DNA from: a virus
Taxonomy: Duplodnaviria > Heunggongvirae > Uroviricota > Caudoviricetes
DNA length: 30,031 nt
Reading direction: 5' to 3' (one strand)
Virus record (IMG/VR): IMGVR_UViG_2648501437_000010
Span: 1 to 30,031 of that record
Shown: piece after piece, positions 3,977-19,621 of the stretch
Position numbering within the stretch: position 1 is the first letter of the stretch
Layout: each line of letters opens with the position of its first letter
Notes under the pieces: generated by a model
The model's database searches: none
Seen by the model: only the letters and a program-made list of their open reading frames with translations
What the model was told of the DNA's origin: nothing
Program-made: the position numbers and the translations under genes

Positions 3977-4336
3977 TCAACCTTTCTTCATTAACTCGCG
4001 TTTAATTTCATCGGTTCGCATCGTGACATCGGCAGCGGTGATCGCCTCATTCAATTTCACGATGTCCTCGATTTCCTGCGGTGACTTCTCTGCCAGATGG
4101 AAAATGGCTGCTCGAATCACGTCAGAACGAGTGAACTTCTCGAAGCGAGGGATGAACTTCATCATCTCCAGCAGTTCGAAGTATTCGTCCTCCAGTGACA
4201 TTGTGCGGCTTTTAATTTTCTCTTTGCCACGAGTCGGGCGTCCCTGTGGTCTGACTGGTTGGCGCAAAGGAGTTGTGTTCTTAGCCGGTGCATCAGGCTC
4301 TTTGCGCTTTGCTAGGTCACCCATTTTCATGGACAT
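3977..4336 (-). CDS. small partition-protein candidate (ParG-like centromere-binding protein)
   Basis: 119 aa; basic, Pro/Arg/Lys-rich N-terminal tail followed by a short C-terminal folded region; ATG overlaps the parA stop (TAATG), implying translational coupling. Size and position fit a type Ib ParA partner. Confidence 0.5.
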   Translation of the reverse strand: MSMKMGDLAKRKEPDAPAKNTTPLRQPVRPQGRPTRGKEKIKSRTMSLEDEYFELLEMMKFIPRFEKFTRSDVIRAAIFHLAEKSPQEIEDIVKLNEAITAADVTMRTDEIKRELMKKG

Positions 4337-5004
4337 TATTCTTCTTCCTCCAGACTCAACAGATAATCTACAAATTCTTCAAACTCGGCTTCCGCCTTTT
4401 TGTCGCGCTCGCTACCGGTCATTTCAAAGATAGAACGACCAGACTCTTCCGCATCATCATAGACGTTGCGGTTATATAGATTGACTGGCGCAGACTCGAT
4501 GCCAAACGTCTCAACAATCTCTTTAGCCGCCAGAATGCGAGACACTTGTGATGGCAAAGCCGGGCACTGGTTCATGACCGCGCGGACCTTCACTTTATCG
4601 TTTACATTACGAACATTGTCGATAATAGGATCAATGTCACGCAGAGATTTCAAATCACGACGCTTAGGACGAAGCGGGATAATGATAACGTCGGCCATCA
4701 GCATCGCTTGTCGCTGAATTTCGGAGTCAAAGCCACCAGCATCTACCACTACAAACTCAGCTCTACCCTGAAGCGATTTTAGGTGCTTAATGATGTCATC
4801 CTGAACGTATGCAAAAGGAATCAGCTCAAGGTCTTCGTTCTGTCGACGGTCTTCACACCAGCTTGTTGTCGTGCGCTGAATATCTATATCAGTGATATAA
4901 ACCTTCTTCTTCTTTTTGACTTTCAGGCAAACGGCAATTTGCTGGGCAACGGTGGATTTGCCAGGCCCGCCCTTTGTGCCGCCAACCACAAAGATCTTGG
5001 TCAT
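4336..5004 (-). CDS. parA: ParA/Soj-family partition ATPase (small, type Ib-like)
   Basis: 222 aa; deviant Walker A KIFVVGGTKGGPGKST at the N-terminus, no N-terminal HTH extension; AAGGGA RBS. Confidence 0.85.
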   Translation of the reverse strand: MTKIFVVGGTKGGPGKSTVAQQIAVCLKVKKKKKVYITDIDIQRTTTSWCEDRRQNEDLELIPFAYVQDDIIKHLKSLQGRAEFVVVDAGGFDSEIQRQAMLMADVIIIPLRPKRRDLKSLRDIDPIIDNVRNVNDKVKVRAVMNQCPALPSQVSRILAAKEIVETFGIESAPVNLYNRNVYDDAEESGRSIFEMTGSERDKKAEAEFEEFVDYLLSLEEEE

Positions 5005-8045: not shown

Positions 8046-8061
8046 GTGTGTACTTACCTAT
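8046..8061 (-). promoter_or_regulatory. recurring 16-nt motif, site B (plus strand gtgtgTACTTACCTAT)
   Basis: Intergenic, about 70 nt upstream of the 7656-7979 gene start, same orientation as the other sites. Confidence 0.4.
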
Positions 8062-8294
8062 CATTCAGCATTGCAACGGACTGATGAGAAAGCACCTACT
8101 CCTACCCATCGCCAGTTATAGATGCTACCCGCTTTGTATAAGGTATAGTCGTTCACTTTTTTAACAGCATATATGGGTATGACTGTCTCCTGTCCACCAA
8201 TGATAGCTTCACCATAACATATAGGTGTCGGCAATTTCTGGCAGCCAGTAAGAGAGAGAACAACAGCTATTGTTAGAAATAATCTTTTCATCAT
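8061..8294 (-). CDS. small lipoprotein (Cor-like superinfection-exclusion candidate)
   Basis: 77 aa; signal peptide MMKRLFLTIAVVLSLTG-C with lipobox LTGC; located downstream of the tail-fibre genes, as cor is in phi80/N15-type phages. Confidence 0.5.
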   Translation of the reverse strand: MMKRLFLTIAVVLSLTGCQKLPTPICYGEAIIGGQETVIPIYAVKKVNDYTLYKAGSIYNWRWVGVGAFSSVRCNAE

Positions 8295-8301
8295 TTACTC
8301 A

Positions 8302-8910
8302 TCAGTTATACAGATTTCTATTTATTACCGGTACTCTGCCATTTACGCTAAAACTATGGCCGCCATTAAGTTGGTTTACGAATATCGAGCTAACAGTATT
8401 TCCATATGCCGCATATCCATAAACCATTGTCATGGCTCCGCCCGGTACTGGAACAGCGGACACATTCGCATATGTTGGGATTATCGCTGGAGGGTAATCA
8501 AAAACATGCCCTCCAGAGCTGTTCCACTCCGTATTATTAAGAAAGGTAAATGAAAGTGGGATATTTGCCGTATTATAGATTTCCTCCCCTTGTGCATTGA
8601 AAAAACTCATGCCCCAAGTTTCTTTTTTGGCTATACCTTTCGAAAATACGTATATCGTGGCACTAGAGTCGCTACCCTGACCTCCGAAACTGTAAATCAC
8701 CTGGTTGTTACGCACTATTCTGTTGGCTATTAATGAAACAGCTTTCGAATAGGCAACAAAAATAATCGGTGAACGATCTGGAGATATTTTGGTGTTAAAC
8801 TCTGTTCCGCCGGACAAAGAAACAACCTGCTTTCTCTGAAAAACGATAGGAGACAAAGAAGGAGACATCCAGACCTTCCCGTCAGATCGATATATCTTGC
8901 TTCCGTACAT
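8302..8910 (-). CDS. hypothetical protein (Gly/Ser/Asn-rich, beta-rich composition)
   Basis: 202 aa; ATG overlaps the stop of the upstream 84-aa ORF (TAATG); no signal peptide. Confidence 0.5.
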   Translation of the reverse strand: MYGSKIYRSDGKVWMSPSLSPIVFQRKQVVSLSGGTEFNTKISPDRSPIIFVAYSKAVSLIANRIVRNNQVIYSFGGQGSDSSATIYVFSKGIAKKETWGMSFFNAQGEEIYNTANIPLSFTFLNNTEWNSSGGHVFDYPPAIIPTYANVSAVPVPGGAMTMVYGYAAYGNTVSSIFVNQLNGGHSFSVNGRVPVINRNLYN

Positions 8911-9164
8911 TATTTTTGAAAAACCAATATGTTTAAATTACCACTAGCTCCAGACCACGAAATGGTATTTCCAGAAACCGTAAGACTTGTGTACTTTCCA
9001 TTGGTTACGTCCATTATGTAATAGTCGATTCCCAATCCCGCCTCAACCTCATATGTTCTACTTCCTGAACCAGAGGGAGTAAAATAATCGAGGTAATAAA
9101 CAGGGGCCAACGCATTGACCATCTCCTGTCTTGATGGCGACCAAACCTGTGCACCATAGCTCAT
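8910..9164 (-). CDS. hypothetical small protein
   Basis: 84 aa; ATG at 9164 with AAGGA RBS 7 nt upstream; a hairpin (9190-9212) sits immediately 5' of the RBS. Confidence 0.45.
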   Translation of the reverse strand: MSYGAQVWSPSRQEMVNALAPVYYLDYFTPSGSGSRTYEVEAGLGIDYYIMDVTNGKYTSLTVSGNTISWSGASGNLNILVFQK

Positions 9165-9301
9165 AAATATATCCTTATACTTTTAAGCAGGGGCTGGTTT
9201 AGCTCCAGCCCCGATTGAAGTTGTTTATTATTTAGGTGAATTTAACTTCGTTTCAAGCTCCTCAACCCTTTTGGTCAATTGCTGAATATGATGAATGAGA
9301 C

Positions 9302-9331
9302 AAGGCCCGATAGCGGGCCTTAATTTTTATT
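9302..9331 (+). terminator. 8-bp GC-rich stem-loop (aaggcccg-atag-cgggcctt) followed by TAATTTTTATT; terminator-like only in the plus orientation
   Basis: Perfect inverted repeat 9302-9309 / 9314-9321 followed by a T-run; lies directly 3' of the tfa stop on the minus strand, where it is preceded by A-run and followed by only a weak U-poor tail. Confidence 0.35.
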
Positions 9332-9857
9332 CAGGCTTTTGTGGCCATTCGGGCTTTGCTGTATCCACACGGTTGACCAGAACGCTGTAGCGTTCCCATG
9401 ACTCCAGTCGTGTACGCTCCTCATCCGTCGCCATATTCAGCCTGACAGCGCGTTCCAGTGGCTGAATAACGCTTTCAGCTTCAGAAAGCAACGCGGCCTT
9501 TTGTGATTCGGCCTGTTGTTGTTGCTCGTCTGCCGTATAAATCCGTTTAACCACAGCTCCGTCCCTAAACATCCACTTACCGGAATCATCAGCGCGGCGG
9601 TTGGCTGTAATATCTGGAACCTCAACGACGCTATAACCTTCAGGGTTAAGCGTGGAGGCATCTTTGGTGATGGCGACAATAATATTATTTGCATCGTAAA
9701 CAATCTTTATTGTGTCTGGCTGAAAGTTCTTCACTTCCTCATACCAGTTTTTTCCGTCTTCGGACCATAACCAGATAACATCAAAATTCTTTGTTAGCTG
9801 ATATTGTTCTTTCGTTTTAGGATTTCCAGACTTAATATTTTTTAAATGCTGCATCAT
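9327..9857 (-). CDS. tfa: tail fibre assembly chaperone (Tfa / Caudo_TAP family)
   Basis: 176 aa; C-terminal [30 protein letters not shown] is typical of Tfa proteins; ATG directly follows the fibre stop (TAAATG). Confidence 0.8.
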
Positions 9858-12800
9858 TTACACCTGTGCGACGTTATACCATGTGCCATTGATGTATTTT
9901 TGTATTGGCCTGAATACTGCTGGGTCATCACCATCAACAGCGCCAATAATGCCAAGCCCTGTAATTACATGACCTGATTTTTCATACATCACACCTTTTC
10001 GCATAGTCTGAACAACACGTGTACCCAGGCGAACATCTTTTACATAGCGTGAATCAAAATTCCCCCAGTTGTTGGGCTGTATCTGACCGTTAACAGAAAA
10101 TATTACCGAGTTATCTGTATTTCGCTGACTATAGAAATGCCAGCCTGAATCATCACCAAGCTCTGCAACAGTTGGTCTTGACGAATTTCCCCACAAGTTA
10201 AATGATGCATTACGGGCAGCGGTATTTGAGCTTGAAAGTGTGAATAACTTACTTTCCCCAGTCTGAATACCCTTTAATGATATTGCTGAACCATTTCTAA
10301 AGCGGAATACATGCACACCATTAGCATAAGCATCCAGCACCCCATCACCATTTTGTTTAAACCCGGTATCGTTATCTCCTAAAACTATTGAATTGCCACC
10401 CAGGGCATTAGCCGTTCCAATCCCCAGATTTCCGCTAAAAATGGCATTAATACCGAATATTGAGTGAGAACAATAAAACCCTCGCCCATTGTTAAAATCA
10501 AGAATAGCTTGCGCGTTCGTGCTTTCTGTCGCGGGATTAGTTGCTCCCCACTTATATGTTGTTTGACCGACGGTATAATCCTGAGTTGGAACAATAACCG
10601 TTAGCCCTTCTTCAGCAGAAACCCGCACAGGAAAAGCCCTGCCTTCAACGTAAAAAACGCTGCATACATCATCTTCTTTAAGGCTTGTTACAATGGAATG
10701 GATTGCGCGCTCATTAGTCTGATACGTCGAAAAATAACCTGCCGCATATGAACCACGATCAGTCCAGCCACCAGGCATTACCATTCCATTGAATTCGCAG
10801 TTATTCATTTCGTAATTACCACCGGCAGATGTGGTCGTTATAATCACTCTGGAAGCCAGCTCGCCAGTGCTGCCTGTGGAACGCCGGAAAATAACTGGAT
10901 ACCACTTTCCACCAACTGCATTAGACGGCGCATTAAATGCGTACTGCCGCATTCCTTTTTTCTTATCCACTTCGCCTTTGCTGTAAACATTAATGTTACT
11001 CAGGAAGCGATCTTTATCAGGAATATCCGCGCCGTTCTGGTTTTTTTGCAATGATCCAGCGGCTAATTCTACGGTTTGCTCAAGATTTAAATCTTCCGCC
11101 GTTAGCTCAATATTTTTAGAACCATCAAACGAGACGCCGTTGATAGTACATGCTGTCTGCAACTTGGTCGCTGTCGCTGCATTACCGGTTGTGTTCTGGT
11201 TACCAGCAATGTTTACACCCGGCAGGTTGATATCGGCAGAGCCATCAAACGCCACACCAGCAATTTTCCTTGCTGTCTGCAATTTTGTGGCGGTTGCGGC
11301 ATTACCAGTAGTGTTCTGATTACCAGTTGTATTCACACCAGGGATTGAATCCTTAGCGGTATATACCTGTGCCCACGCTGACCATGCTGCATCAGTGGTA
11401 TCTCTTCGGGAGCGAATGAAAACCGGCGCATGTGCACCGCTCGTACCACTCCAGCCAATAAGCAACTCACCCTCGCCAGCAGCACTCGCACCTTTCATGT
11501 GCAATACGTTGCCATACGTGGTCGGATAGCTATTGTTGTACGCCTCGTACATTTGAATGCCAGCAGTGCCTTGAGTAGAGCCGCTTAACGCCGTAACTCG
11601 GCCACGAGATACCAATGTATTAATGTTGATATCGCCTGAGCCATCAAACTTAACACCATTGATGTTTCTCGCTGTTTGCAACTTCGTAGCTGTTGAAGCA
11701 TTACCGTTCAAACTACCATTTATGCCACCAGTAACATTTAGTCCATTACCAATAGACACAACACCGCTAGTATTATTAATTGTAATCGGTCGCAAGCCGT
11801 TCCATGAACCTAACGTATCTCCTGATGCTGTTAGCATGAAATATGTGCTGCCGCCGTCATTACGGATAAAGAACCCAAAGCTACCGTAAGCAATGCGGAA
11901 ACCATTTGCATATTTTGAAACGATCTCACCAGAAGATGTCAAACCTCCAGATAATGTACCACCGGTAAGAGGTAATGCACCAACGTCAGATGCAGTTGGT
12001 TTGTTTTTCGTGTTATATACTCTTCGCCATCCTGGAGAATAATCTGTGCCATTAAATACATAGATAAACTCCGCATTAGTGAGAGCACCGGAAACACTTG
12101 TCGTTGTGGCCGTTGTTATGCGGATCGTATAATTATTTGAACTACTACCGTTATTAAATACTTCTATAACAGCTCCTGCCAATGGAATAACGCCACAACC
12201 AGTTTCACTATTTGGTATGGTTGCGCTATTGGCATAGGCCCACGCACATCGAGCAATCCATGCCTTTGTGTTAAAGGCTCCATTATTTTGCAATAACGTC
12301 ACTAACTGGGCTGTTGTTATTGCTCCGCCATTACTTCCTGTAGTTAACCAACCAGTAGGAGATGCCGGGCAACCTATATTTGCTGGCGACAAGGAAATAT
12401 TTGCCGAGCCGTCAAACGACACCCCATTGATAGTACGCGCAGTCTGCAACTTCGTAGCAGTAGCCGCATTACCTGTTGTATTCTGATTACCAGTCGTATT
12501 AACACCTGGCAAATTAATATTTGCAGTACCATCAAAGCTCACGCCGCCGATAGTTCTTGCCGTCTGTAGTTTTGTAGCAGTTGCGGCATTACCAGTGGTG
12601 TTCTGATTACCCGTAGTGTTTACACCTGGAAGATTAATATTGGCAGAACCGTCGAAACCAACTCCACCGATAGTTCTTGTCGTCTGTAATTTCGTTGCTG
12701 TACTTGCATTACCATTCAATGAACCAGTTAATCCGCCTGTAACAGACAACGGACCAGAAACTGTTCCTCCGGTTGTTGGCAGTGCTCCAATATCTGATGG

Positions 12801-14801
12801 CGTAGGTTTCTGATGTGAGCTATACATCGTATAAACAACACCATCGGTAACGCTGGCAGGCTTACTCGCTGAATATGTTGGCGATGTATAAATAGAAACT
12901 GACGCATTTGCAGTACAATCCCAGTGGACATTTACACTCGTCGCATAATTGCCAATCTCAACATAAATATCATATGTATCGCCGGATGTATTCACCCATG
13001 CAAAATTAGTAAATCCAACCGATGTCCTTCGCCATAACGCACCAGTAAGACCTTTTGGATTTCCATTTCCCGCACGAAGAACAAGTTCAGATATACCAGC
13101 CTGCATAGGGGAGTTAACATTATATCCAGCACCACCAATCAATGTGATGTAAACGATGGAACTCGCTTGTGGCATGGTAACCGTAGCCAGTTTGAACCAC
13201 CCAGCCCCGCCAGAGAAAGACATCGTTACTGAATTTAAAGTACCAATATCTTTCGGCGTTAATGTTATATCCGCAGTCAGTGCTTTTCCGTTAATTTTTC
13301 GGTTAGATGGCACCCTGCTATTCGCATTGTCATTGGCTGCTTTAACTGCTTTTGGCGTTGCGGCCAGCGATTCACTGGTGCTATCGACAGCACTGCTAAG
13401 TTTCACAACACCTTTAGTTGTAAGGCTTGCGTCTTCCATCGCAACTGCACCGGCAATCTCTTCAGCACGATCAGCAGCAGCTTCCGCACGGGTCGCAGCG
13501 GATTCAGCAGCAGTTTTGCTCTGAGATGCAGCCGTCGCACTGCCTGCCGCCTCTGTTGCTTTCGTGGATGCCGTTGAAGCACTGCCCTTCGCTTCTGATG
13601 CCTGCTTGGTCGCCTCATCTTTTGAAGCGGATGCTGAGGAGGCTGATGCAGACGCAGAACTTGCAGATTCAGCAGCTGCCGCCTTAGAGGAAGCAGCATT
13701 GTCTTCTGAAGTCTTTGCATTTGTTTCAGAGGTTTTTGCTGCCGATGCTGAATTTTTAGCAGCTGTAGCCTGACTCGTCGCCTCTGTCGCTTTTGTGGTA
13801 GCTGTTGTCGCTGATGACAATGCGCTATCCGCAGATTTTCCTGCCGCTGTTGCACTTGATGAAGCACTATCCGCACTTGCTGAGGCTGCGCTTGCTGACG
13901 CTTCTGCCGCAGATTTCGAACTGTTTGCAGACGATGCACTCTGTTCGGCTGCCGTTTCAGATGCTTTTGCGTTTGCCTCTGACGTTTTTGCTGCCTTAGA
14001 CGAATTTGCAGCTTCTGTTGCCGATGATGCTGCCGCGTTTGCGCTCGATGAAGCGTTAGTCTCTGATGCTTTGGCTGCATCCTTAGATGCAGAGGCACTG
14101 GACGCAGATGTTGCTGCCTCCGATGCTTTGGCCGACGCTACAGATGCTGATTCTGCTGCCGCTTCTTTTGCGGCTTGTGCGTTCGTTTCAGATTTTTTCG
14201 CAGCAGTTGCGCTCGCACTTGCAGCACTTTGTGAGGATGCCGCAGCGGATGCACTTTGAGACGCTTGAGAGGCTTTTTCTCCAGCGGTATTGGCGCTTTC
14301 TGCTGCTGCGGCAGCACTGGCCGCCGCCTCACGAGCTTTGTCGCCAGCAGCATCAATCGCGTCAGTGTTATTTTTATACCACTCAACGTTTTCGTTGTGC
14401 TCGTTGACGATCTGCATTAGCGGCTTAACGGTCACTTCTGTACCGTCTTCACGCTCGATTGTCACCTCATCCAGAGCAGTCAACCAACTGCGCATGGACT
14501 TGGAATCAGCCGACATACGCGACATTAGTGCAGTAAAGCGCGCGCTAAACTGTGTTAAGTCGCCTTCATAGGTCGTAATGATTCGGCACGGAACTTCAGA
14601 CTGAGTTTCGCCGGTATAAGGTTCTGAGAGAACAATGTTCGTATCACTGGTTACGCGCTTGATCTCATACAGCTTATTGTCGGGGCCAATGACGATCATC
14701 CCCGGCAACACACCATTAGCTGTTACGTTCCAGGCTGTCCCTGCCCCAACCAGAGTATTGCTGCCCTGTGTAAATGTGATAGTACCTTCCCTGTACCACA
14801 T
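9858..14801 (-). CDS. stf: side tail fibre protein (lambda Stf / P2 gpH-like mosaic)
   Basis: 1647 aa; long Ala/Ser/Thr-rich region with ...TKGVVKLSSAVDSTSESLAATPKAVKAAN as in lambda Stf; multiple GNAATATKLQTAR-type phage tail fibre repeats; C-terminus ...FRPIQKYINGTWYNVAQV of the Tfa-dependent fibre family; AAGGAG RBS. Confidence 0.85.
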   Translation of the reverse strand: MWYREGTITFTQGSNTLVGAGTAWNVTANGVLPGMIVIGPDNKLYEIKRVTSDTNIVLSEPYTGETQSEVPCRIITTYEGDLTQFSARFTALMSRMSADSKSMRSWLTALDEVTIEREDGTEVTVKPLMQIVNEHNENVEWYKNNTDAIDAAGDKAREAAASAAAAAESANTAGEKASQASQSASAAASSQSAASASATAAKKSETNAQAAKEAAAESASVASAKASEAATSASSASASKDAAKASETNASSSANAAASSATEAANSSKAAKTSEANAKASETAAEQSASSANSSKSAAEASASAASASADSASSSATAAGKSADSALSSATTATTKATEATSQATAAKNSASAAKTSETNAKTSEDNAASSKAAAAESASSASASASSASASKDEATKQASEAKGSASTASTKATEAAGSATAASQSKTAAESAATRAEAAADRAEEIAGAVAMEDASLTTKGVVKLSSAVDSTSESLAATPKAVKAANDNANSRVPSNRKINGKALTADITLTPKDIGTLNSVTMSFSGGAGWFKLATVTMPQASSIVYITLIGGAGYNVNSPMQAGISELVLRAGNGNPKGLTGALWRRTSVGFTNFAWVNTSGDTYDIYVEIGNYATSVNVHWDCTANASVSIYTSPTYSASKPASVTDGVVYTMYSSHQKPTPSDIGALPTTGGTVSGPLSVTGGLTGSLNGNASTATKLQTTRTIGGVGFDGSANINLPGVNTTGNQNTTGNAATATKLQTARTIGGVSFDGTANINLPGVNTTGNQNTTGNAATATKLQTARTINGVSFDGSANISLSPANIGCPASPTGWLTTGSNGGAITTAQLVTLLQNNGAFNTKAWIARCAWAYANSATIPNSETGCGVIPLAGAVIEVFNNGSSSNNYTIRITTATTTSVSGALTNAEFIYVFNGTDYSPGWRRVYNTKNKPTASDVGALPLTGGTLSGGLTSSGEIVSKYANGFRIAYGSFGFFIRNDGGSTYFMLTASGDTLGSWNGLRPITINNTSGVVSIGNGLNVTGGINGSLNGNASTATKLQTARNINGVKFDGSGDININTLVSRGRVTALSGSTQGTAGIQMYEAYNNSYPTTYGNVLHMKGASAAGEGELLIGWSGTSGAHAPVFIRSRRDTTDAAWSAWAQVYTAKDSIPGVNTTGNQNTTGNAATATKLQTARKIAGVAFDGSADINLPGVNIAGNQNTTGNAATATKLQTACTINGVSFDGSKNIELTAEDLNLEQTVELAAGSLQKNQNGADIPDKDRFLSNINVYSKGEVDKKKGMRQYAFNAPSNAVGGKWYPVIFRRSTGSTGELASRVIITTTSAGGNYEMNNCEFNGMVMPGGWTDRGSYAAGYFSTYQTNERAIHSIVTSLKEDDVCSVFYVEGRAFPVRVSAEEGLTVIVPTQDYTVGQTTYKWGATNPATESTNAQAILDFNNGRGFYCSHSIFGINAIFSGNLGIGTANALGGNSIVLGDNDTGFKQNGDGVLDAYANGVHVFRFRNGSAISLKGIQTGESKLFTLSSSNTAARNASFNLWGNSSRPTVAELGDDSGWHFYSQRNTDNSVIFSVNGQIQPNNWGNFDSRYVKDVRLGTRVVQTMRKGVMYEKSGHVITGLGIIGAVDGDDPAVFRPIQKYINGTWYNVAQV
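11090..11350 (-). repeat. in-frame tandem copies of the phage tail fibre repeat inside stf
   Basis: Near-identical DNA blocks encoding GNQNTTGNAATATKLQTAR...FDGS...INLPGVN; this also explains the antisense plus-strand ORFs with ...CNFVAVAALPVVF. Confidence 0.6.
12395..12720 (-). repeat. three tandem copies (about 117 bp each) of the phage tail fibre repeat inside stf
   Basis: Repeated ...accagtagtgttctgattacc...ggcag...ccatcaaa... units visible in the DNA; encoded peptide NTTGNQNTTGNAATATKLQTARTIGGVSFDG x3. Confidence 0.65.
13450..14350 (-). repeat. low-complexity GC-rich region encoding the Ala/Ser/Thr-rich segment of stf
   Basis: Continuous gcngcn/tcngan codon periodicity; produces long spurious ORFs in several alternative frames on both strands. 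Confidence 0.65.
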
Positions 14802-14893: not shown

Positions 14894-17800
14894 TTACAGA
14901 AGGCCAATTCTTACTCGTAGGACGTTGTTATCGTCATAAACGTCAATCCGCTGACCATTTATGACCAGTCGCCCATTGCCGCCGCTATTACCGTTGATCT
15001 CAAGCGTTCCATTTTTGCCGAATCGCCATCCAGATCTACCGCTAACAAAATTGGTAGATTGCAGATCGCCTACTTTTGCATTGGTGATTGTGCCATCCTT
15101 GATATACGCTCCATTCATATAGGCGATACTGTTTTCGATAACAAATGGCGTTGTGATCTTCCCGTTAACAGAGTTGACCAAACCAAACCTGTCCGCCTGA
15201 ACCAAAAACTGAGATAGCCCAGTGGTGTCAATACCAAGCGCAATACCGGCAACATACTTCTGCCCTCCGCTCGTTGAAGTCTCCATTTTCAACGTCCACG
15301 CGGTTGACACTTTTTTGTTGGTATCAGCAATAGCTGTTGCCTGCTGTTGAATTGTCGCGGTATTTCCATCCACCTCTGCTTTCAGAGTATCGATTCGCCC
15401 ACTCAGAGCATTATCTGCCTGCGTTCTCGCTGTCGTTTCAGTTGTTACCGCCGCGGAAATGTTGGCTGCCGTTTGAGACTCTAAGTTTGTGATTTGAGTC
15501 GCCAATGCAGCATCTTGCTCTGTACGCGTTTTCGTTTCGGTTGCTACAGCCGCTTTAATATCCTCTTTGTATTGAGAGGTCAGCTTGGTGATCTGAGACG
15601 ACAACGCCGAGTCAGCATCAGTTCGAGCCTGCGTTTCAACTGCAACGGCCGCACTAATATCTTTCGCTGTCTGTGCTTTTAAACTTGAAACCTCTTTTGT
15701 TAAAGCGGTATCACCATCAGCACGAGCCGTTGTTTCTCTGGCAAGAGATGCCTCGAGATCATTAGCTTTTGCTGTAAGAGACGAAATCTGAGTGGACAAT
15801 GCACTATCGGCATCAGTCCTTGCCTTTGTCTCTACAGCAACCGCTGCGGCAATATCAGTTCCGGTTTGTGCTCGCAGGCTGTTAATTTCTCGTGAGAGCG
15901 CCTGGTCAGCACTTGCTCTGGCCTCCTGCTCCTGAGTGATGGCAGCGGATATATCACCGTCAACCTTTGACTGAAGCTGGTTTATTTGTTTGGCTAACGC
16001 AGAGTCCCCGCTTGCTCGGGCCTCCTGCTCACTACGTATTGCAGCAGAAATATCATCATCAACCTTTGCCTGAAGTTGGGTGATCTGGCTTGCCAGAGCC
16101 GAATCTTCCGTTGCTCGGGCTTCTTGCTCTTCCTTAATAGCTGCGACGATATCGTTGCTTACTTTCGACTCAAGCTGAGTGATCTGTGTCGTCAGAGCTT
16201 CATCGGCAGATGTACGAGCCTCCTGCTCTGTACTAATCGCCGCGCTGATATCTCCTTCAAACTTAGATTGCAGCTGAGTGACACGCTTTGCCAACGCTTC
16301 ATCGCCATCGGCACGAGCGGTGGACTCTTCCAGAATACTGGCCTTAATGTCTTCGCCAATTTCTACGCGAATTTCCTCAACCTTCGTGGCCATTGCAGAC
16401 ATATCATCAGCAAAGGTTTTCTGTGTTGTTGCGATCTTCGCGTTATTGACCATCTGCTTGTGCTGGTCTTCATCTTGACGAAGAGCCAGGTCAATATTTG
16501 TTTTGGCCAAAGCCTCAATGTTCGTAGTCAGTTCTGCACTGGCACGATCGACCTCTGCAACCGTCTTTTTCATTTCTTCAACGGCAGCGGAGCTTTCCTC
16601 TACCGTTGACTGCAACACTTCCAGTTGTTTAGCGTTTGCAGCATCACCTTCAACACGAGCCTCGCTTTCCTTAGCAATAAGAGCCGCCGCTTCATCTCTT
16701 GCAGCCTTTATTGCCTCGACTGTATTAGCGAGAGCTTTATCGTGTTCAGATACGGTATTTTCGATTTCAACAATTGCAGCATCAGTAGCATCAATTTTTT
16801 CAAACGCTTCATTGACCTTGTCGATCGTTGCCGAAACCTCACCTTTAAGCTCGGTTTGTGCGTTCTCCAAAGCATCGCTACGCTCGTTGAATTTTATTTC
16901 AAAATCCGCGAGGTTATCGCTGAACTGCTTATCTAATTCAGCTATATCTTCCTTAACGTCGTTTACCGCCCCCTCCAAAGATTCGACGCTCTGGTTGATA
17001 TGCTCATTTAACTCGTCAACGGCTTCTTGAGAGGCTTTGCTGTTGATGTCCTCAAGCAGAGCCTGACCAAGCTCGGAAGATGTAATTTTGCCAGTCAGGA
17101 ACGACAGTACATCGCGAGTTGTCGCCTCTGTACCCAAGTTTGAGTTCGGAGGACTTAACATACCTCGCTTGTTCGATGCTCGAACCCAGTAATACCACGT
17201 TTCGCTATCCCCAAGACCAGCATGTGTAAAGGTGGTGCTTGCAGACTCTGCGATCAGTTTCGCCGTATCCAGATTATTGGTCTGGGACGCGTAAACATTA
17301 ATGTGATCAAGGTCTACCGAATCTGGATTAACCCAATTCAGTATCACATTACGATAGTCTCCAACGGCCGTTAATGACGTTGGGGCATCTGGCGGTGTCA
17401 TTGTGCCCAGCACCTGATAAACGGTACTGATAATCTCTGTTTTTTTACCGTTGAATGAAACCGCATACAGCTGGAAGTCGTAGCGTCCATTCTCCGCAAC
17501 ATTAACGATTTCGTATTGCTCTTCGGTTACACGCGCCGATTGCCAGTTCGATACATTGTTTTCATCAGAACGTCGCCAACTGATCCAATACTCTGGAGAT
17601 TTCCCTTCCCATGTTGCAGTCAGTTTTACTGACAGGTTGCCAGGGCTTGAGAGATAAGTCCCTTCGGTGATTTGCAAATTAGACGGCTTGGAGTAAGTCG
17701 GGTCCAATACCGTCGTATTTTGCGGGATAAGCGTTGCACCATTGTCGATCGCCTCATATTTAGACGGATTGTTCTCAACAGCGGTGATGTCAAAGCTACC

Positions 17801-19621
17801 CGGCGTTTCCCCCTGCGCGATGTTAACGATGCGAACGCGCATAGGTTCGAGGTCTGGTTCTGTAATAGTCCAGACGCCGTTCAAAACAGGCGTTTCAGCC
17901 GAAGACAGGGCTTTTGAAAACGTAACTTTTGTTATATTTTCGCCAGTTTCAAGAACATCGCGTTCAACGATTTTGCCTTCCTGATTCAGTATTCGAATAA
18001 AGCAGCCGCCTTTGGCTAACGACACAGGCGCATCGAGTGTGACGCTGTTTTTGGTAAACGCCACAATTCGACCTGAGTTACGTTTGCCTGCGCGATATTT
18101 GTTCTGAATCAGAACGGTTTCACCAGGCATCAGAAATGACGCGTCTAAGCCGGCAGTAAATGTAATTACATCCGACTCCATTCTGGCGGTATATAAAAGC
18201 CATAAACCAACTCGGTGAGCCTGCCCTCGGCTTGTACAGCCAAATGCTACGACTTCTGTCTTACGCTCACCATAACGGCGCATTGCGTCCTGATCTTCAA
18301 CGTACTCGATGTTTTGCTTATAACCGTCCTCCTTGTTGTTGTAGGTTACGAGCGCAACGGATGGGCGATCTTTACGCGCAGAACCTTTATAGGTAAACAA
18401 TCCATCTTTGACGTTAGAGTTGGTAAACATCATTACCGGATCTGATGGGCTATCCTGCATGATGTTAACCATCCCACCAGCCCAAAACACCATGCCGCGG
18501 AATGCTCCAGCAATATCCTGAATTAGCCGGTATGCGTCCTGTCGACTGGTGATCTGCGTATTGATTGCAAAGCGTTTCTCTTTGCCACCAAAGCCATCAT
18601 CGACCTCTTCGTCACAATATCGACCAATCTGGTACAACTGGCCAAGGTCAATCATAGATTCCGACACATACTGACCAAGGCCATATCGAGCATTGGTCAG
18701 CAAATCAAAGAGAATCCACGCGGGGTTCGAAGAAGACAACAGCTTAAAAGTACCATCCCATACCCCAGCGTAAGTGTTACTTGACTCGTTATAGTTTGAA
18801 GGTACTCGAATTTTTAGGCCACGCACCAGATAAGAGCGAGATGGCATGGTGCTGCCGAATTGCTCAGAGTTTACCTTCAATCCAACCAAAACAGAGTTTG
18901 GATAGTTCATCGGTGTATCGACAATTTCCCCGATTGAATCCACCCATGTATCGTTATAGAGATACTGGCTACTGTTATCATCGGTAATACGGACTACACG
19001 AACCTTGTATGCGCGTCCAGGCTTAGGCAGCTTCAGCTCGTAGCTACGGTAATAAACGCCGGTCTTCTTTGCTGTTAGCTTAATGCCAACGCTTTTTTCA
19101 CCTTCCGCGACCACATCTACAAATGTTGAGTCGCCATTTGCTATCTGGAACTTGTACTCAACAGTCGTACCGTTCGTGTCACCAGTTTTTTTATCTATGC
19201 TTCGCAAAGAAGGAAACTTCATGATGACACGAACCCGATCAGCTTCATCGTTATCGATTGAAACCGTTACATAATGTGTTTTTTTTAACTGGATATTGAC
19301 GGATTTAGGCGTTTCAACGAAATCAAAGCCAGACATTGGAGTCTGGTCTTGTGAACCGTCGCGAAAATCCCATGTGATTCCGCTGAAGTTGGAGGAACCG
19401 TCTTCATTTACAATCGGCAGATCGTCGATAAAAATAGATCTTGCGCCATTTACTAAGCCGCCAATTACCCCTTCCCCAAGAAGATCGAGGATAGCGGCCA
19501 TTGCACGAGAATTTACGGTATCGTCGGCTTCAACCGGTGTACGGCTGGAGCTTTTGCTGCTTTTTTTACCACCCGCACCGGCAATAAACAGCGGTAGCTT
19601 TTTCTTCTTGAACTGTTCCAT
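14894..19621 (-). CDS. J: host specificity / central tail fibre protein (lambda J family) with an inserted coiled-coil repeat region
   Basis: About 1576 aa from ATG at 19621 (AAGGA RBS); blocks such as AFGCTSRGQAHRVGLWLLYT and ...QKYVAGIALG...SQFLVQADRFGLVN match lambda J as I recall it; the track ORF begins at a TTG two codons upstream. Confidence 0.9.
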   Translation of the reverse strand: MEQFKKKKLPLFIAGAGGKKSSKSSSRTPVEADDTVNSRAMAAILDLLGEGVIGGLVNGARSIFIDDLPIVNEDGSSNFSGITWDFRDGSQDQTPMSGFDFVETPKSVNIQLKKTHYVTVSIDNDEADRVRVIMKFPSLRSIDKKTGDTNGTTVEYKFQIANGDSTFVDVVAEGEKSVGIKLTAKKTGVYYRSYELKLPKPGRAYKVRVVRITDDNSSQYLYNDTWVDSIGEIVDTPMNYPNSVLVGLKVNSEQFGSTMPSRSYLVRGLKIRVPSNYNESSNTYAGVWDGTFKLLSSSNPAWILFDLLTNARYGLGQYVSESMIDLGQLYQIGRYCDEEVDDGFGGKEKRFAINTQITSRQDAYRLIQDIAGAFRGMVFWAGGMVNIMQDSPSDPVMMFTNSNVKDGLFTYKGSARKDRPSVALVTYNNKEDGYKQNIEYVEDQDAMRRYGERKTEVVAFGCTSRGQAHRVGLWLLYTARMESDVITFTAGLDASFLMPGETVLIQNKYRAGKRNSGRIVAFTKNSVTLDAPVSLAKGGCFIRILNQEGKIVERDVLETGENITKVTFSKALSSAETPVLNGVWTITEPDLEPMRVRIVNIAQGETPGSFDITAVENNPSKYEAIDNGATLIPQNTTVLDPTYSKPSNLQITEGTYLSSPGNLSVKLTATWEGKSPEYWISWRRSDENNVSNWQSARVTEEQYEIVNVAENGRYDFQLYAVSFNGKKTEIISTVYQVLGTMTPPDAPTSLTAVGDYRNVILNWVNPDSVDLDHINVYASQTNNLDTAKLIAESASTTFTHAGLGDSETWYYWVRASNKRGMLSPPNSNLGTEATTRDVLSFLTGKITSSELGQALLEDINSKASQEAVDELNEHINQSVESLEGAVNDVKEDIAELDKQFSDNLADFEIKFNERSDALENAQTELKGEVSATIDKVNEAFEKIDATDAAIVEIENTVSEHDKALANTVEAIKAARDEAAALIAKESEARVEGDAANAKQLEVLQSTVEESSAAVEEMKKTVAEVDRASAELTTNIEALAKTNIDLALRQDEDQHKQMVNNAKIATTQKTFADDMSAMATKVEEIRVEIGEDIKASILEESTARADGDEALAKRVTQLQSKFEGDISAAISTEQEARTSADEALTTQITQLESKVSNDIVAAIKEEQEARATEDSALASQITQLQAKVDDDISAAIRSEQEARASGDSALAKQINQLQSKVDGDISAAITQEQEARASADQALSREINSLRAQTGTDIAAAVAVETKARTDADSALSTQISSLTAKANDLEASLARETTARADGDTALTKEVSSLKAQTAKDISAAVAVETQARTDADSALSSQITKLTSQYKEDIKAAVATETKTRTEQDAALATQITNLESQTAANISAAVTTETTARTQADNALSGRIDTLKAEVDGNTATIQQQATAIADTNKKVSTAWTLKMETSTSGGQKYVAGIALGIDTTGLSQFLVQADRFGLVNSVNGKITTPFVIENSIAYMNGAYIKDGTITNAKVGDLQSTNFVSGRSGWRFGKNGTLEINGNSGGNGRLVINGQRIDVYDDNNVLRVRIGLL
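15330..16370 (-). repeat. about 12 tandem 87-bp (29-codon) in-frame repeats inside J encoding a heptad-like coiled coil
   Basis: Repeated peptide unit DISAAIxxEQEARAxxDxALxxQIxQLQSKV; repeated DNA units visible (e.g. gcctcctgctc...gatatc...aacctttg...); explains the antisense ORFs on the plus strand at 15494-17030. Confidence 0.65.

What the first reader, a model, noticed from the sequence alone, without database searches (positions are those of the whole stretch)
8302..9164. Two coupled unknown genes directly after tfa
ORFs 8910-9164 (84 aa) and 8302-8910 (202 aa, Gly/Ser/Asn-rich) are joined by a TAATG overlap and are preceded by their own hairpin plus AAGGA RBS. They lie between the fibre chaperone and the Cor-like lipoprotein. 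Neither has a signal peptide. They could be a second adhesin or fibre-tip pair, or non-structural accessory genes.
Basis: inference. Interest (0 to 1): 0.45.

Follow-up and report, generated by a model that had tools for sequence, protein, structure and literature searches.

The report
Phage tail-tip receptor-binding gene pair
These two overlapping genes are one phage-plasmid's copies of an already described gene pair (N15 gp22/gp23, T1 gp32/gp31) that lies next to the Cor exclusion gene and most likely forms the receptor-binding cap of the central tail fibre; the kind is known, but its function has never been shown by experiment.

Summary
Two minus-strand ORFs (9164..8910, 84 aa; 8910..8302, 202 aa) share a TAATG overlap, follow a hairpin and an AAGGA site, lack export signals and are under purifying selection.

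They are not orphans. They match PHROG 557 and 425, the N15 gp22/gp23 and T1 gp32/gp31 family. The window is an E. coli SSU5-like phage-plasmid.

In related phages the order J tip fibre, small gene, large gene, Cor lipoprotein is nearly invariant, and published work ties it to FhuA use. It is called a "bona fide RBP locus" or "extended cor cassette". No experiment has assigned a function.

Best reading (about 0.6): the two proteins cap the J-like central fibre and bind an outer-membrane receptor, probably FhuA, which Cor then blocks.

New here:
- The small protein is a paralogue of the large protein's N-terminal module.
- The best solved-structure match of the large protein is the LptD-binding RBP of phage Oekolampad, but the match is weak.
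- The cassette diverges much faster than the backbone.
- The cassette did not move when the side fibre and tfa were swapped.
- The same plasmid lineage carries a second pair elsewhere.

Verdict: new member of a known kind, moderate interest.

The parts
8910..9164 (-). ORF84, the small subunit (PHROG 557; N15 gp22 / T1 gp32 family): a small all-beta protein whose conserved N-terminal arm is predicted with low confidence
   Evidence: phrog_557 at 2.4e-24. 68% identical to SSU5_023. AF2 pLDDT 80, with residues 1-20 low. hhalign against the N-terminal module of the large protein gives prob 94%, E 1.4e-7. pN/pS 0.21/0.74.
8302..8910 (-). ORF202, the large subunit (PHROG 425; N15 gp23 / T1 gp31 family): the candidate receptor-binding protein, made of two beta modules that each open with a [YW]G-x2-hydrophobic-aromatic...G...P motif
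   Evidence: phrog_425 at 1.9e-48. 75% identical to SSU5_024. AF2 pLDDT 74.9, pTM 0.76, all-beta. Best PDB fold match is 9rpt_C, the RBP of phage Oekolampad bound to LptDE (E 2.5e-3, prob 0.97, TM 0.29). Identity to SSU5 is 88% in residues 1-25 and 60-72% in residues 126-200.
8908..8912 (-). TAATG stop/start overlap that couples translation of the two genes
   Evidence: Read directly from the sequence. The same 1-nt overlap is present in 53 of 57 related loci and in N15 and T1.
9172..9176 (-). AAGGA ribosome-binding site, 7 nt before the ORF84 ATG
   Evidence: Read directly from the sequence.
9190..9212 (-). GC-rich hairpin (8-bp stem, 7-nt loop) just past the end of the ancestral fibre gene; it has no U-tract on the coding strand
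8061..8294 (-). Cor exclusion lipoprotein gene, 7 nt after the ORF202 stop; third gene of the cassette
   Evidence: NF047972 lamb_exclu_cor at 5.8e-23. phrog_1119 at 2.3e-30. Lipobox LTGC. 42% identical to N15 Cor over the full length, more than N15 Cor is to T1 Cor at 35.5%.
14894..19621 (-). J-like central tail-tip fibre gene, whose C-terminal PF09327 tip domain is the presumed docking site for the pair
   Evidence: Pfam FNIII-A_GpJ, Phage-tail_3 and Phage_Tail_Tip at 1.4e-41 on residues 1425-1559. The tip domain is 89-95% identical to SSU5 J.
9327..14801 (-). Side tail fibre (14801..9858) plus a P1/Mu U-type tfa (9857..9327): a swapped-in module that separates J from the cassette and is not part of it
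   Evidence: Pfam Gp34_trimer and Caudo_TAP. The 3' end is 95% identical to P1/P7/Mu U. Sibling plasmids diverge upstream of about 9299.

Best explanation
ORF84 and ORF202 are made together in the cytoplasm late in infection. Translational coupling through the TAATG overlap would favour co-expression of the two. [quoted passage not shown] The more variable C-terminal part of ORF202 would then bind the terminal outer-membrane receptor, most probably the ferrichrome transporter FhuA, and trigger irreversible adsorption. The third gene of the operon, Cor, is exported as a lipoprotein and inactivates that receptor, so that lysogens or infected cells and their debris no longer adsorb the phage or its competitors.

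Shown here: family membership, gene order, coupling, absence of export signals, the predicted fold, and the pattern of divergence.

Inferred: presence in the virion, docking on J, and FhuA as the target.
For: 1. Family. Both proteins match PHROG 557 and 425, which hold N15 gp22/gp23 and T1 gp32/gp31.

2. Synteny. In 35 of 37 N15-type loci with enough flank, a long ORF on the same strand (N15 gene 21, J, in the reference locus) ends at the small gene's start and a 77-80 aa Cor-type lipoprotein follows the large gene. In Stx phages the pair follows a PF09327 tip-domain protein. In Warwickvirus and Nonagvirus it abuts gpJ.

3. Literature. This position downstream of gpJ is the "bona fide RBP locus", whose alleles track the terminal receptor (PMC8594841; preprint 10.64898/2026.04.02.716166). 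In BASEL, all 10 phages with Cor plus both upstream genes use FhuA (PMC13164509). For the LptD allele at the same locus, cryo-EM shows the RBP on LptD and the neighbouring lipoprotein acting as the exclusion factor (PMC12685063).

4. Same architecture with a different lipoprotein. In atuna the order is lipoprotein gp15 (MKKLIAVIATVAALTGC), then the small gene, then the large gene. In Rtp it is lipoprotein rtp45, then the RBP rtp44.

5. No signal peptide or transmembrane segment, which fits a protein assembled in the cytoplasm.

6. Structure. Of 350,542 PDB chains, the best fold match of the ORF202 model is the Oekolampad RBP (E 2.5e-3, prob 0.97; the next hit has E 0.11). The concatenated small+large profile aligns colinearly with the whole Rtp44 family.

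7. Conserved N-terminal arms are predicted with low confidence in isolation. Likewise, the tail-proximal part of the Oekolampad RBP is poorly ordered.

8. Divergence between the window and SSU5. ORF84, ORF202 and Cor are 68%, 75% and 57-59% identical. The neighbouring holin-like gene is 96% identical and the J tip domain 89-95%.

9. The window's Cor is a close Cor orthologue.
Against: - No family member has been shown in a virion or shown to bind a receptor. The T1 cryo-EM tail tip does not model gp31 or gp32.
- The match to the Oekolampad RBP is weak: TM 0.29, hhalign E 2.6e-3 with prob 11%, and no HMM hit to any PDB sequence.
- Here the cassette is 5.7 kb from J, separated by the side fibre and tfa.
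- A secondary citation says SSU5 infects rough Salmonella by binding core LPS through gp22. That citation names no protein receptor.
- The SSU5-type large protein is closer to Warwickvirus proteins (30%) than to the FhuA-linked N15 and T1 proteins (19%). The Warwickviruses tested did not need FhuA. FhuA is therefore inferred from Cor alone, and Cor-like proteins also accompany BtuB-targeting phages.
- A paralogous pair sits in a non-tail neighbourhood in the same plasmid lineage.
- One study treats J itself as the FhuA RBP.
Confidence: 0.6

Rival explanations
1. Only one of the two proteins, or neither, ends up in the virion. ORF84 (or the pair) acts as an assembly chaperone or adaptor that folds or attaches the J tip or the true RBP, as Tfa/gp38-type helpers do for side fibres.
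For: The preprint calls the co-located small proteins "accessory proteins". Tight translational coupling is typical of chaperone-client pairs. Rtp44 could not be expressed alone in E. coli. T1 cryo-EM shows no density assigned to gp31 or gp32.
Against: The small protein is a paralogue of a structural module of the large one (prob 94%), which suggests a co-assembling subunit rather than a chaperone. There is no similarity to Caudo_TAP or any known chaperone family. Both proteins diverge quickly and together.
Confidence: 0.17
2. The pair helps Cor carry out superinfection exclusion. [quoted passage not shown]
For: Constant linkage to cor. Here the pair is in one operon with cor, only 7 nt apart. 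PMC13164509 proposes this role.
Against: Neither protein has a signal peptide, lipobox or transmembrane segment, so neither can reach the envelope by known routes. The pair occurs without Cor in Stx phages and Nonagvirus. From my own recollection of Vostrov 1996 and Uc-Mass 2004, which I did not re-read, cloned cor alone confers exclusion. There is no PADLOC match.
Confidence: 0.08
3. The pair is an adhesin or tip for the side tail fibre encoded just upstream, which is how the first reader read its position after tfa.
For: It lies directly after the fibre and tfa genes in this window and in SSU5.
Against: Sibling plasmids keep the cassette at 99.5% identity while carrying a different fibre end and no tfa. 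In N15, T1 and most relatives the pair follows J, and the side fibre is elsewhere or downstream.
Confidence: 0.04
4. The pair consists of non-structural accessory (moron-like) genes unrelated to adsorption.
For: A second pair lies among replication and accessory genes in p09EL50-type plasmids. PHROG files the large protein under "moron, auxiliary metabolic gene and host takeover".
Against: The pair is present in strictly virulent T1-like and Nonagvirus phages at the gpJ locus. The allele at that locus tracks the receptor used.
Confidence: 0.08

Closest known systems
N15 gp22/gp23 + Cor (gp24), also T1 gp32/gp31 + Cor (gp30) and the HK022, phi80 and ES18 equivalents: the "FhuA-type RBP locus" or "extended cor cassette"
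   Same: Same two PHROG families. Same order: small, large, Cor. Same 1-nt stop/start overlap. No export signals. A J protein with a PF09327 tip domain lies in the same late region.
   Different: Only 19-28% identical to the N15 and T1 proteins. The proteins are shorter (84+202 aa against 100+225). The cassette is separated from J by a side fibre and tfa. Cor follows after 7 nt instead of about 100-112 nt. The host element is a roughly 110-kb phage-plasmid.
Rtp44 / Oekolampad RBP with the Rtp45 exclusion lipoprotein (LptD-type RBP locus; PDB 9rpt)
   Same: Same genomic logic: an RBP next to its cognate exclusion lipoprotein, beside gpJ. It is the best solved-structure match of ORF202. The summed length is similar (286 against 311 aa). 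The motif is in register: WGMSFFNAQGEEIYNTANIPL against PGINIFNSNNQCTFSTLTRPL. Concatenated small+large aligns colinearly with Rtp44.
   Different: It is a single chain rather than two genes. Sequence relatedness is not significant (prob 11%) and TM is only 0.29. The receptor is LptD, and Rtp45 is unrelated to Cor beyond the signal peptide.
T5 pb5 (RBP) with Llp (exclusion lipoprotein)
   Same: Works in the same way: a separate RBP, not covalently part of the central fibre, binds FhuA, and an adjacent small lipoprotein blocks FhuA (PMC9586334).
   Different: No sequence or fold relationship was found. pb5 is one large monomer.
Tfa / gp38-type fibre chaperones and adhesins
   Same: Small genes that follow a fibre gene and influence host range.
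   Different: No Caudo_TAP or related match for either ORF. The real tfa is the neighbouring gene, 9857..9327.

Membership tests
N15 gp22/gp23 - T1 gp32/gp31 cassette (PHROG 557 + 425) | Profile match of the small and the large protein | tested here: met
   phrog_557 at 2.4e-24 and phrog_425 at 1.9e-48, both full length. The profile search recovers 193 relatives, including N15-type and T1-like proteins.
N15 gp22/gp23 - T1 gp32/gp31 cassette (PHROG 557 + 425) | Small gene directly upstream of the large gene with a 1-nt stop/start overlap | tested here: met
   TAATG at 8912..8908. The same overlap occurs in 53 of 57 related loci.
N15 gp22/gp23 - T1 gp32/gp31 cassette (PHROG 557 + 425) | Cor-type exclusion lipoprotein gene next to the pair | tested here: met
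   NF047972 at 5.8e-23. 42% identical to N15 Cor. Present in 35 of 37 N15-type loci.
N15 gp22/gp23 - T1 gp32/gp31 cassette (PHROG 557 + 425) | Position immediately downstream of the J-like tip-fibre gene | tested here: not met
   J (14894..19621, PF09327) is on the same strand, but a 5.5-kb side-fibre and tfa module lies between it and the pair. SSU5 has the same displaced order.
N15 gp22/gp23 - T1 gp32/gp31 cassette (PHROG 557 + 425) | The phage depends on FhuA | not testable with these tools
   Inferred only from Cor orthology and from the literature association. The only receptor I found cited for SSU5 is core LPS.
Rtp44 / Oekolampad-type single-chain RBPs | Detectable sequence homology | tested here: inconclusive
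   hhalign E 0.003-0.008 with prob 5-11%. The alignment is colinear but weak. There is no HMM hit to PDB sequences.
Rtp44 / Oekolampad-type single-chain RBPs | Shared fold with the solved RBP (9rpt_C) | tested here: inconclusive
   It is the top Foldseek hit, at E 2.5e-3 and prob 0.97 with the next hit at E 0.11, but TM is 0.29/0.24 and rmsd 15.8 A.
Rtp44 / Oekolampad-type single-chain RBPs | One polypeptide of about 310 aa | tested here: not met
   Two genes, of 84 and 202 aa. No fused form was found among 194 representatives.
Outer-membrane or membrane-associated proteins (the database labels) | Signal peptide, lipobox or transmembrane segment | tested here: not met
   Hydrophilic N-termini. 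Maximum 19-residue hydropathy is 0.54 and 1.38, and neither protein has a cysteine.
Tail-fibre assembly proteins or adhesins (Caudo_TAP, gp38-like) | Profile match | tested here: not met
   No Pfam, NCBIfam or PHROG tail-chaperone match for either ORF.
Known anti-phage defence systems | PADLOC profile match | tested here: not met
   No match at E up to 1.

The most novel reading that the evidence does not exclude
The small protein and the two modules of the large protein are three diverged copies of one beta module. Together they would build a pseudo-threefold cap for the trimeric J tip. On this reading the two-gene form is a split homologue of the single-chain LptD-binding RBPs (Rtp44, Oekolampad), so receptor-binding families of small siphophages now described as unrelated would share one origin. 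It would also follow that the SSU5-like phage-plasmids common in clinical and animal E. coli use FhuA through this pair, and a second outer-membrane protein through the paralogous pair encoded about 54 kb away.
Probability: 0.2. Interest if true: 0.6.

Novelty: new member of a known kind. Interest (0 to 1): 0.38.

Why it matters
SSU5-like phage-plasmids are common in E. coli, Shigella, Salmonella and Enterobacter: 200 or more plasmid records match this stretch. Their terminal receptor is not established. If the pair is the receptor-binding cap and Cor its cognate blocker, three things follow.
- Host range of these elements can be predicted from this cassette.
- Lysogens should resist T1-, T5- and phi80-type phages and colicin M.
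- The pair becomes a swappable module for engineering.

The family is also a good target for settling how T1, N15 and phi80 actually bind FhuA, which is still unresolved decades after FhuA was identified as their receptor. The module repeat and the weak link to the solved LptD-binding RBP give concrete structural hypotheses to test.

Tried and rejected
- Pfam, NCBIfam, PADLOC and PDB sequence searches gave nothing for either ORF.
- Foldseek of the ORF84 model against the PDB found nothing below E 0.39, only generic Ig-like or beta-sandwich matches.
- BFVD gave 21 matches for ORF202 (TM up to 0.67), all uncharacterised phage proteins, so no function could be transferred.
- I looked for a natural small+large fusion among 194 family representatives. 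The only long hits are a J-C-terminus::large chimera (P0160) and a variant with a different C-terminal domain (P0269).
- I considered a programmed -1 frameshift at CAAAAATAATG that would fuse the two ORFs. The A-run is not conserved (SSU5 has CAGAAATAATG, N15 GCCTAATG), and N15-type loci carry a GGAG about 10 nt before the ATG instead. Ordinary coupling is the better reading.
- I looked for an own promoter. One sigma-70-like site lies at 9256..9227, but the region has fewer such sites than shuffled controls, so nothing can be claimed.
- I searched the window for the second pair. It is absent from these 30 kb.
- The search for related loci with the mixed alignment A1 failed for lack of conserved stretches. 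Single-protein queries were used instead.
- The Rtp genome paper and the SSU5 receptor paper were not available to read.

Full report
**What is there**

All the relevant genes are on the minus strand. In reading order they are:
- a J-like tip fibre, 19621..14894;
- a 1647-aa side fibre, 14801..9858;
- a tfa gene, 9857..9327;
- ORF84, 9164..8910;
- ORF202, 8910..8302;
- a 77-aa lipoprotein, 8294..8061;
- then holin-like, endolysin and spanin genes.

The last A of the ORF84 stop codon is the A of the ORF202 ATG (TAATG). AAGGA lies 7 nt before the ORF84 start, and a GC hairpin lies at 9190-9212. ORF202 is rich in Ser, Gly and Asn. Neither protein has a signal peptide or a membrane-spanning segment. 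Against the SSU5 orthologues, non-synonymous change is far below synonymous change (0.21/0.74 and 0.17/0.79), so both are real genes.

PGAP starts ORF202 at Met15. Residues 1-14 are conserved across the whole family, so the overlapping start is the better call.

**Where the window comes from**

The stretch is 99.6% identical to non-mobilizable plasmids of about 110 kb from E. coli and E. fergusonii. It is 70% identical at the DNA level to Salmonella phage SSU5. The window is therefore part of an SSU5-like phage-plasmid. SSU5 has the same order: J, fibre, tfa-like gene, 023, 024, Cor, lysis genes.

**What the genes are**

Pfam, NCBIfam, PADLOC and the PDB sequence set give nothing. PHROGs does: ORF84 matches phrog_557 (2.4e-24) and ORF202 matches phrog_425 (1.9e-48).

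These families contain N15 gp22/gp23 and T1 gp32/gp31. In both phages the pair lies directly after the J gene, shows the same 1-nt overlap and sits next to cor. The lipoprotein downstream of ORF202 is a clear Cor orthologue. It matches NF047972 at 5.8e-23. It is 42% identical to N15 Cor, more than N15 Cor is to T1 Cor.

Homologous pairs also occur in three other settings:
- Warwickvirus and Nonagvirus phages, beside gpJ;
- Stx phages, after a protein that carries the PF09327 tip domain;
- 283 phage records in all.

The family is small. It has 194 representatives at 50% identity among 1.84 billion proteins.

**How constant the cassette is**

I fetched 67 N15-type loci. The small stop overlaps the large start by one base in 53 of 57 loci. 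In 35 of the 37 loci with enough flank, a long same-strand ORF (J in the reference locus) ends at the small gene's start and a 77-80 aa Cor-type lipoprotein follows the large gene by about 100-112 nt.

**What the literature says**

- Maffei et al. defined the position downstream of gpJ as the "bona fide RBP locus". Its alleles match the terminal receptor and are accompanied by exclusion proteins (PMC8594841).
- A 2026 preprint confirmed this with 255 phages and AlphaFold3 models. It calls the co-located small genes accessory proteins.
- For the LptD allele, cryo-EM showed the Oekolampad RBP on LptDE and showed that the adjacent lipoprotein Rtp45 is the exclusion factor (PMC12685063).
- The KanT1 paper describes the "extended cor cassette" explicitly. 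It reports no Foldseek or HHpred hit for the two upstream proteins. It finds that all 10 BASEL phages with Cor plus both upstream genes use FhuA. It guesses at a role in exclusion (PMC13164509).
- The T1 cryo-EM study does not model gp31 or gp32.

No paper I could read shows a function by experiment.

**New analyses here**

1. Internal repeat. The small-protein profile aligns with the N-terminal roughly 90 residues of the large protein (prob 94%, E 1.4e-7). Its N-terminal motif aligns again with the middle of the large protein (prob 83%, E 9e-6). The motif can be read three times in the window's own proteins: SYGAQVWSPSRQEMVNALAPV, MYGSKIYRSDGKVWMSPSLSPI and TWGMSFFNAQGEEIYNTANIPL. This suggests that the pair is built from three related modules. 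The third is supported only by a 32-residue motif match.

2. Structure. AF2 gives all-beta models (pLDDT 80 and 75). In both, the conserved first 20 or so residues are of low confidence. The ORF84 model has no significant PDB neighbour. For ORF202 the best of 350,542 chains is 9rpt_C, the Oekolampad RBP bound to LptDE (E 2.5e-3, prob 0.97; the next hit has E 0.11). TM is only 0.29.

3. Link to Rtp44. Rtp44 is 311 aa and carries the same motif in register near residue 208. The concatenated small+large profile aligns colinearly with the whole Rtp44 family, but weakly (E 2.6e-3, prob 11%). I treat the idea that the pair is a split version of the single-chain RBP as suggestive, not shown.

4. Divergence against SSU5. 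ORF84, ORF202 and Cor are 68%, 75% and 57-59% identical. The holin-like neighbour is 96% identical and the J tip domain 89-95%. Within both proteins the N-terminus is the most conserved part. This is the pattern expected for a conserved docking arm and an adapting receptor face.

5. Independence from the side fibre. Sibling plasmids match the window at 99.5% only up to about 9299. They have a different fibre gene that ends about 60 nt before ORF84, and they have no tfa. The window's tfa 3' end is 95% identical to P1/P7/Mu U. The side fibre and tfa were therefore swapped without touching the cassette.

**Interpretation**

The best-supported reading is that ORF84 and ORF202 form the receptor-binding cap of the J-like central fibre and that Cor blocks the same receptor.

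FhuA is the most likely target because Cor is orthologous to the FhuA-blocking Cor proteins. This inference is indirect, for three reasons. The SSU5-type large protein is closer to Warwickvirus proteins than to the N15 and T1 proteins, and the Warwickviruses tested did not need FhuA. Cor-like proteins also accompany BtuB-targeting phages. And a secondary citation gives core LPS as the SSU5 receptor, bound through gp22.

Rival readings remain open. The main ones are an assembly helper that is absent from virions, a partner of Cor in exclusion, and unrelated accessory genes. The exclusion reading is weakened by the lack of any export signal and by the pair occurring without Cor.

A complication is that the same plasmid lineage carries a second, Nonagvirus-like pair about 54 kb away, in a non-tail neighbourhood.

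**Verdict**

This is a new member of an already described gene cassette whose function is still unproven. Interest is moderate. The value lies in a testable receptor prediction for a widespread group of phage-plasmids, and in the module repeat and the weak structural link to a solved RBP.

Noticed in passing
not in the window; NZ_CP116406.1 88997-89608, and L008:6714-7615 (p09EL50): The window's plasmid lineage carries a second small+large pair (93+204 aa) about 54 kb from the first. NZ_CP116406.1 and CP056788.1 each have both pairs, and 125 plasmids have pair B. In p09EL50 it lies among replication and accessory genes, not tail genes. By eye from the printed sequences, roughly three-quarters of its first 55 or so residues match the Nonagvirus JenP1 large protein, which lies at the gpJ locus; the full-length identity was not computed. 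It is about 60% identical to the match in an EDL933 record. It could be a second receptor-binding module. From memory, short-tailed Stx phages use BamA, and BASEL left one Nonagvirus RBP allele without a receptor.
   Followed up: partly
window 9228-9299 (minus strand): The intergenic region after tfa holds a start-less reading frame, ...HHIQQLTKRVEELETKLNSPK*. It lies where the tail-fibre gene of sibling plasmids ends, at about window 9225, and those plasmids match the window only up to about 9299. It is probably the leftover 3' end of the fibre gene that was there before the P1/Mu-type fibre tip and tfa module was recombined in.
   Followed up: partly
window 9292-9400: The tfa 3' end and the hairpin after it (9302-9321) are 92-95% identical to gene U/U' of P1, P7, Mu and D108. 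The hairpin scores as a terminator only for the plus strand. This marks recent exchange of a fibre-tip module between unrelated temperate phages.
   Followed up: partly
L003:5451-5720 (phage atuna gp15): In Warwickvirus atuna the pair is preceded by an unannotated-function 89-aa lipoprotein (MKKLIAVIATVAALTGC...). It is unrelated to Cor beyond the signal peptide. It is a likely exclusion factor for a different receptor, arranged exactly like Rtp45-Rtp44.
   Followed up: partly
window 8061-8294; L002 and L099: The Cor gene is missing from the gene tables of the sibling plasmid records, which show a gap between the holin-like gene and the 188-aa call. The same records start ORF202 at Met15. Both look like annotation shortfalls, although the plasmid gene tables are known to be incomplete.
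   Followed up: no
P0160 (337 aa, from the representative search): One metagenomic protein joins a J C-terminal FN3/tip segment directly to residues 52 to the end of a large-subunit homologue. It may be an assembly or deletion artefact, or a natural J::RBP fusion.
   Followed up: no
window 4336-5004: A ParA-like ATPase gene lies 3 kb beyond the lysis genes, as in SSU5 (SSU5_033). This fits plasmid maintenance of the prophage.
   Followed up: no
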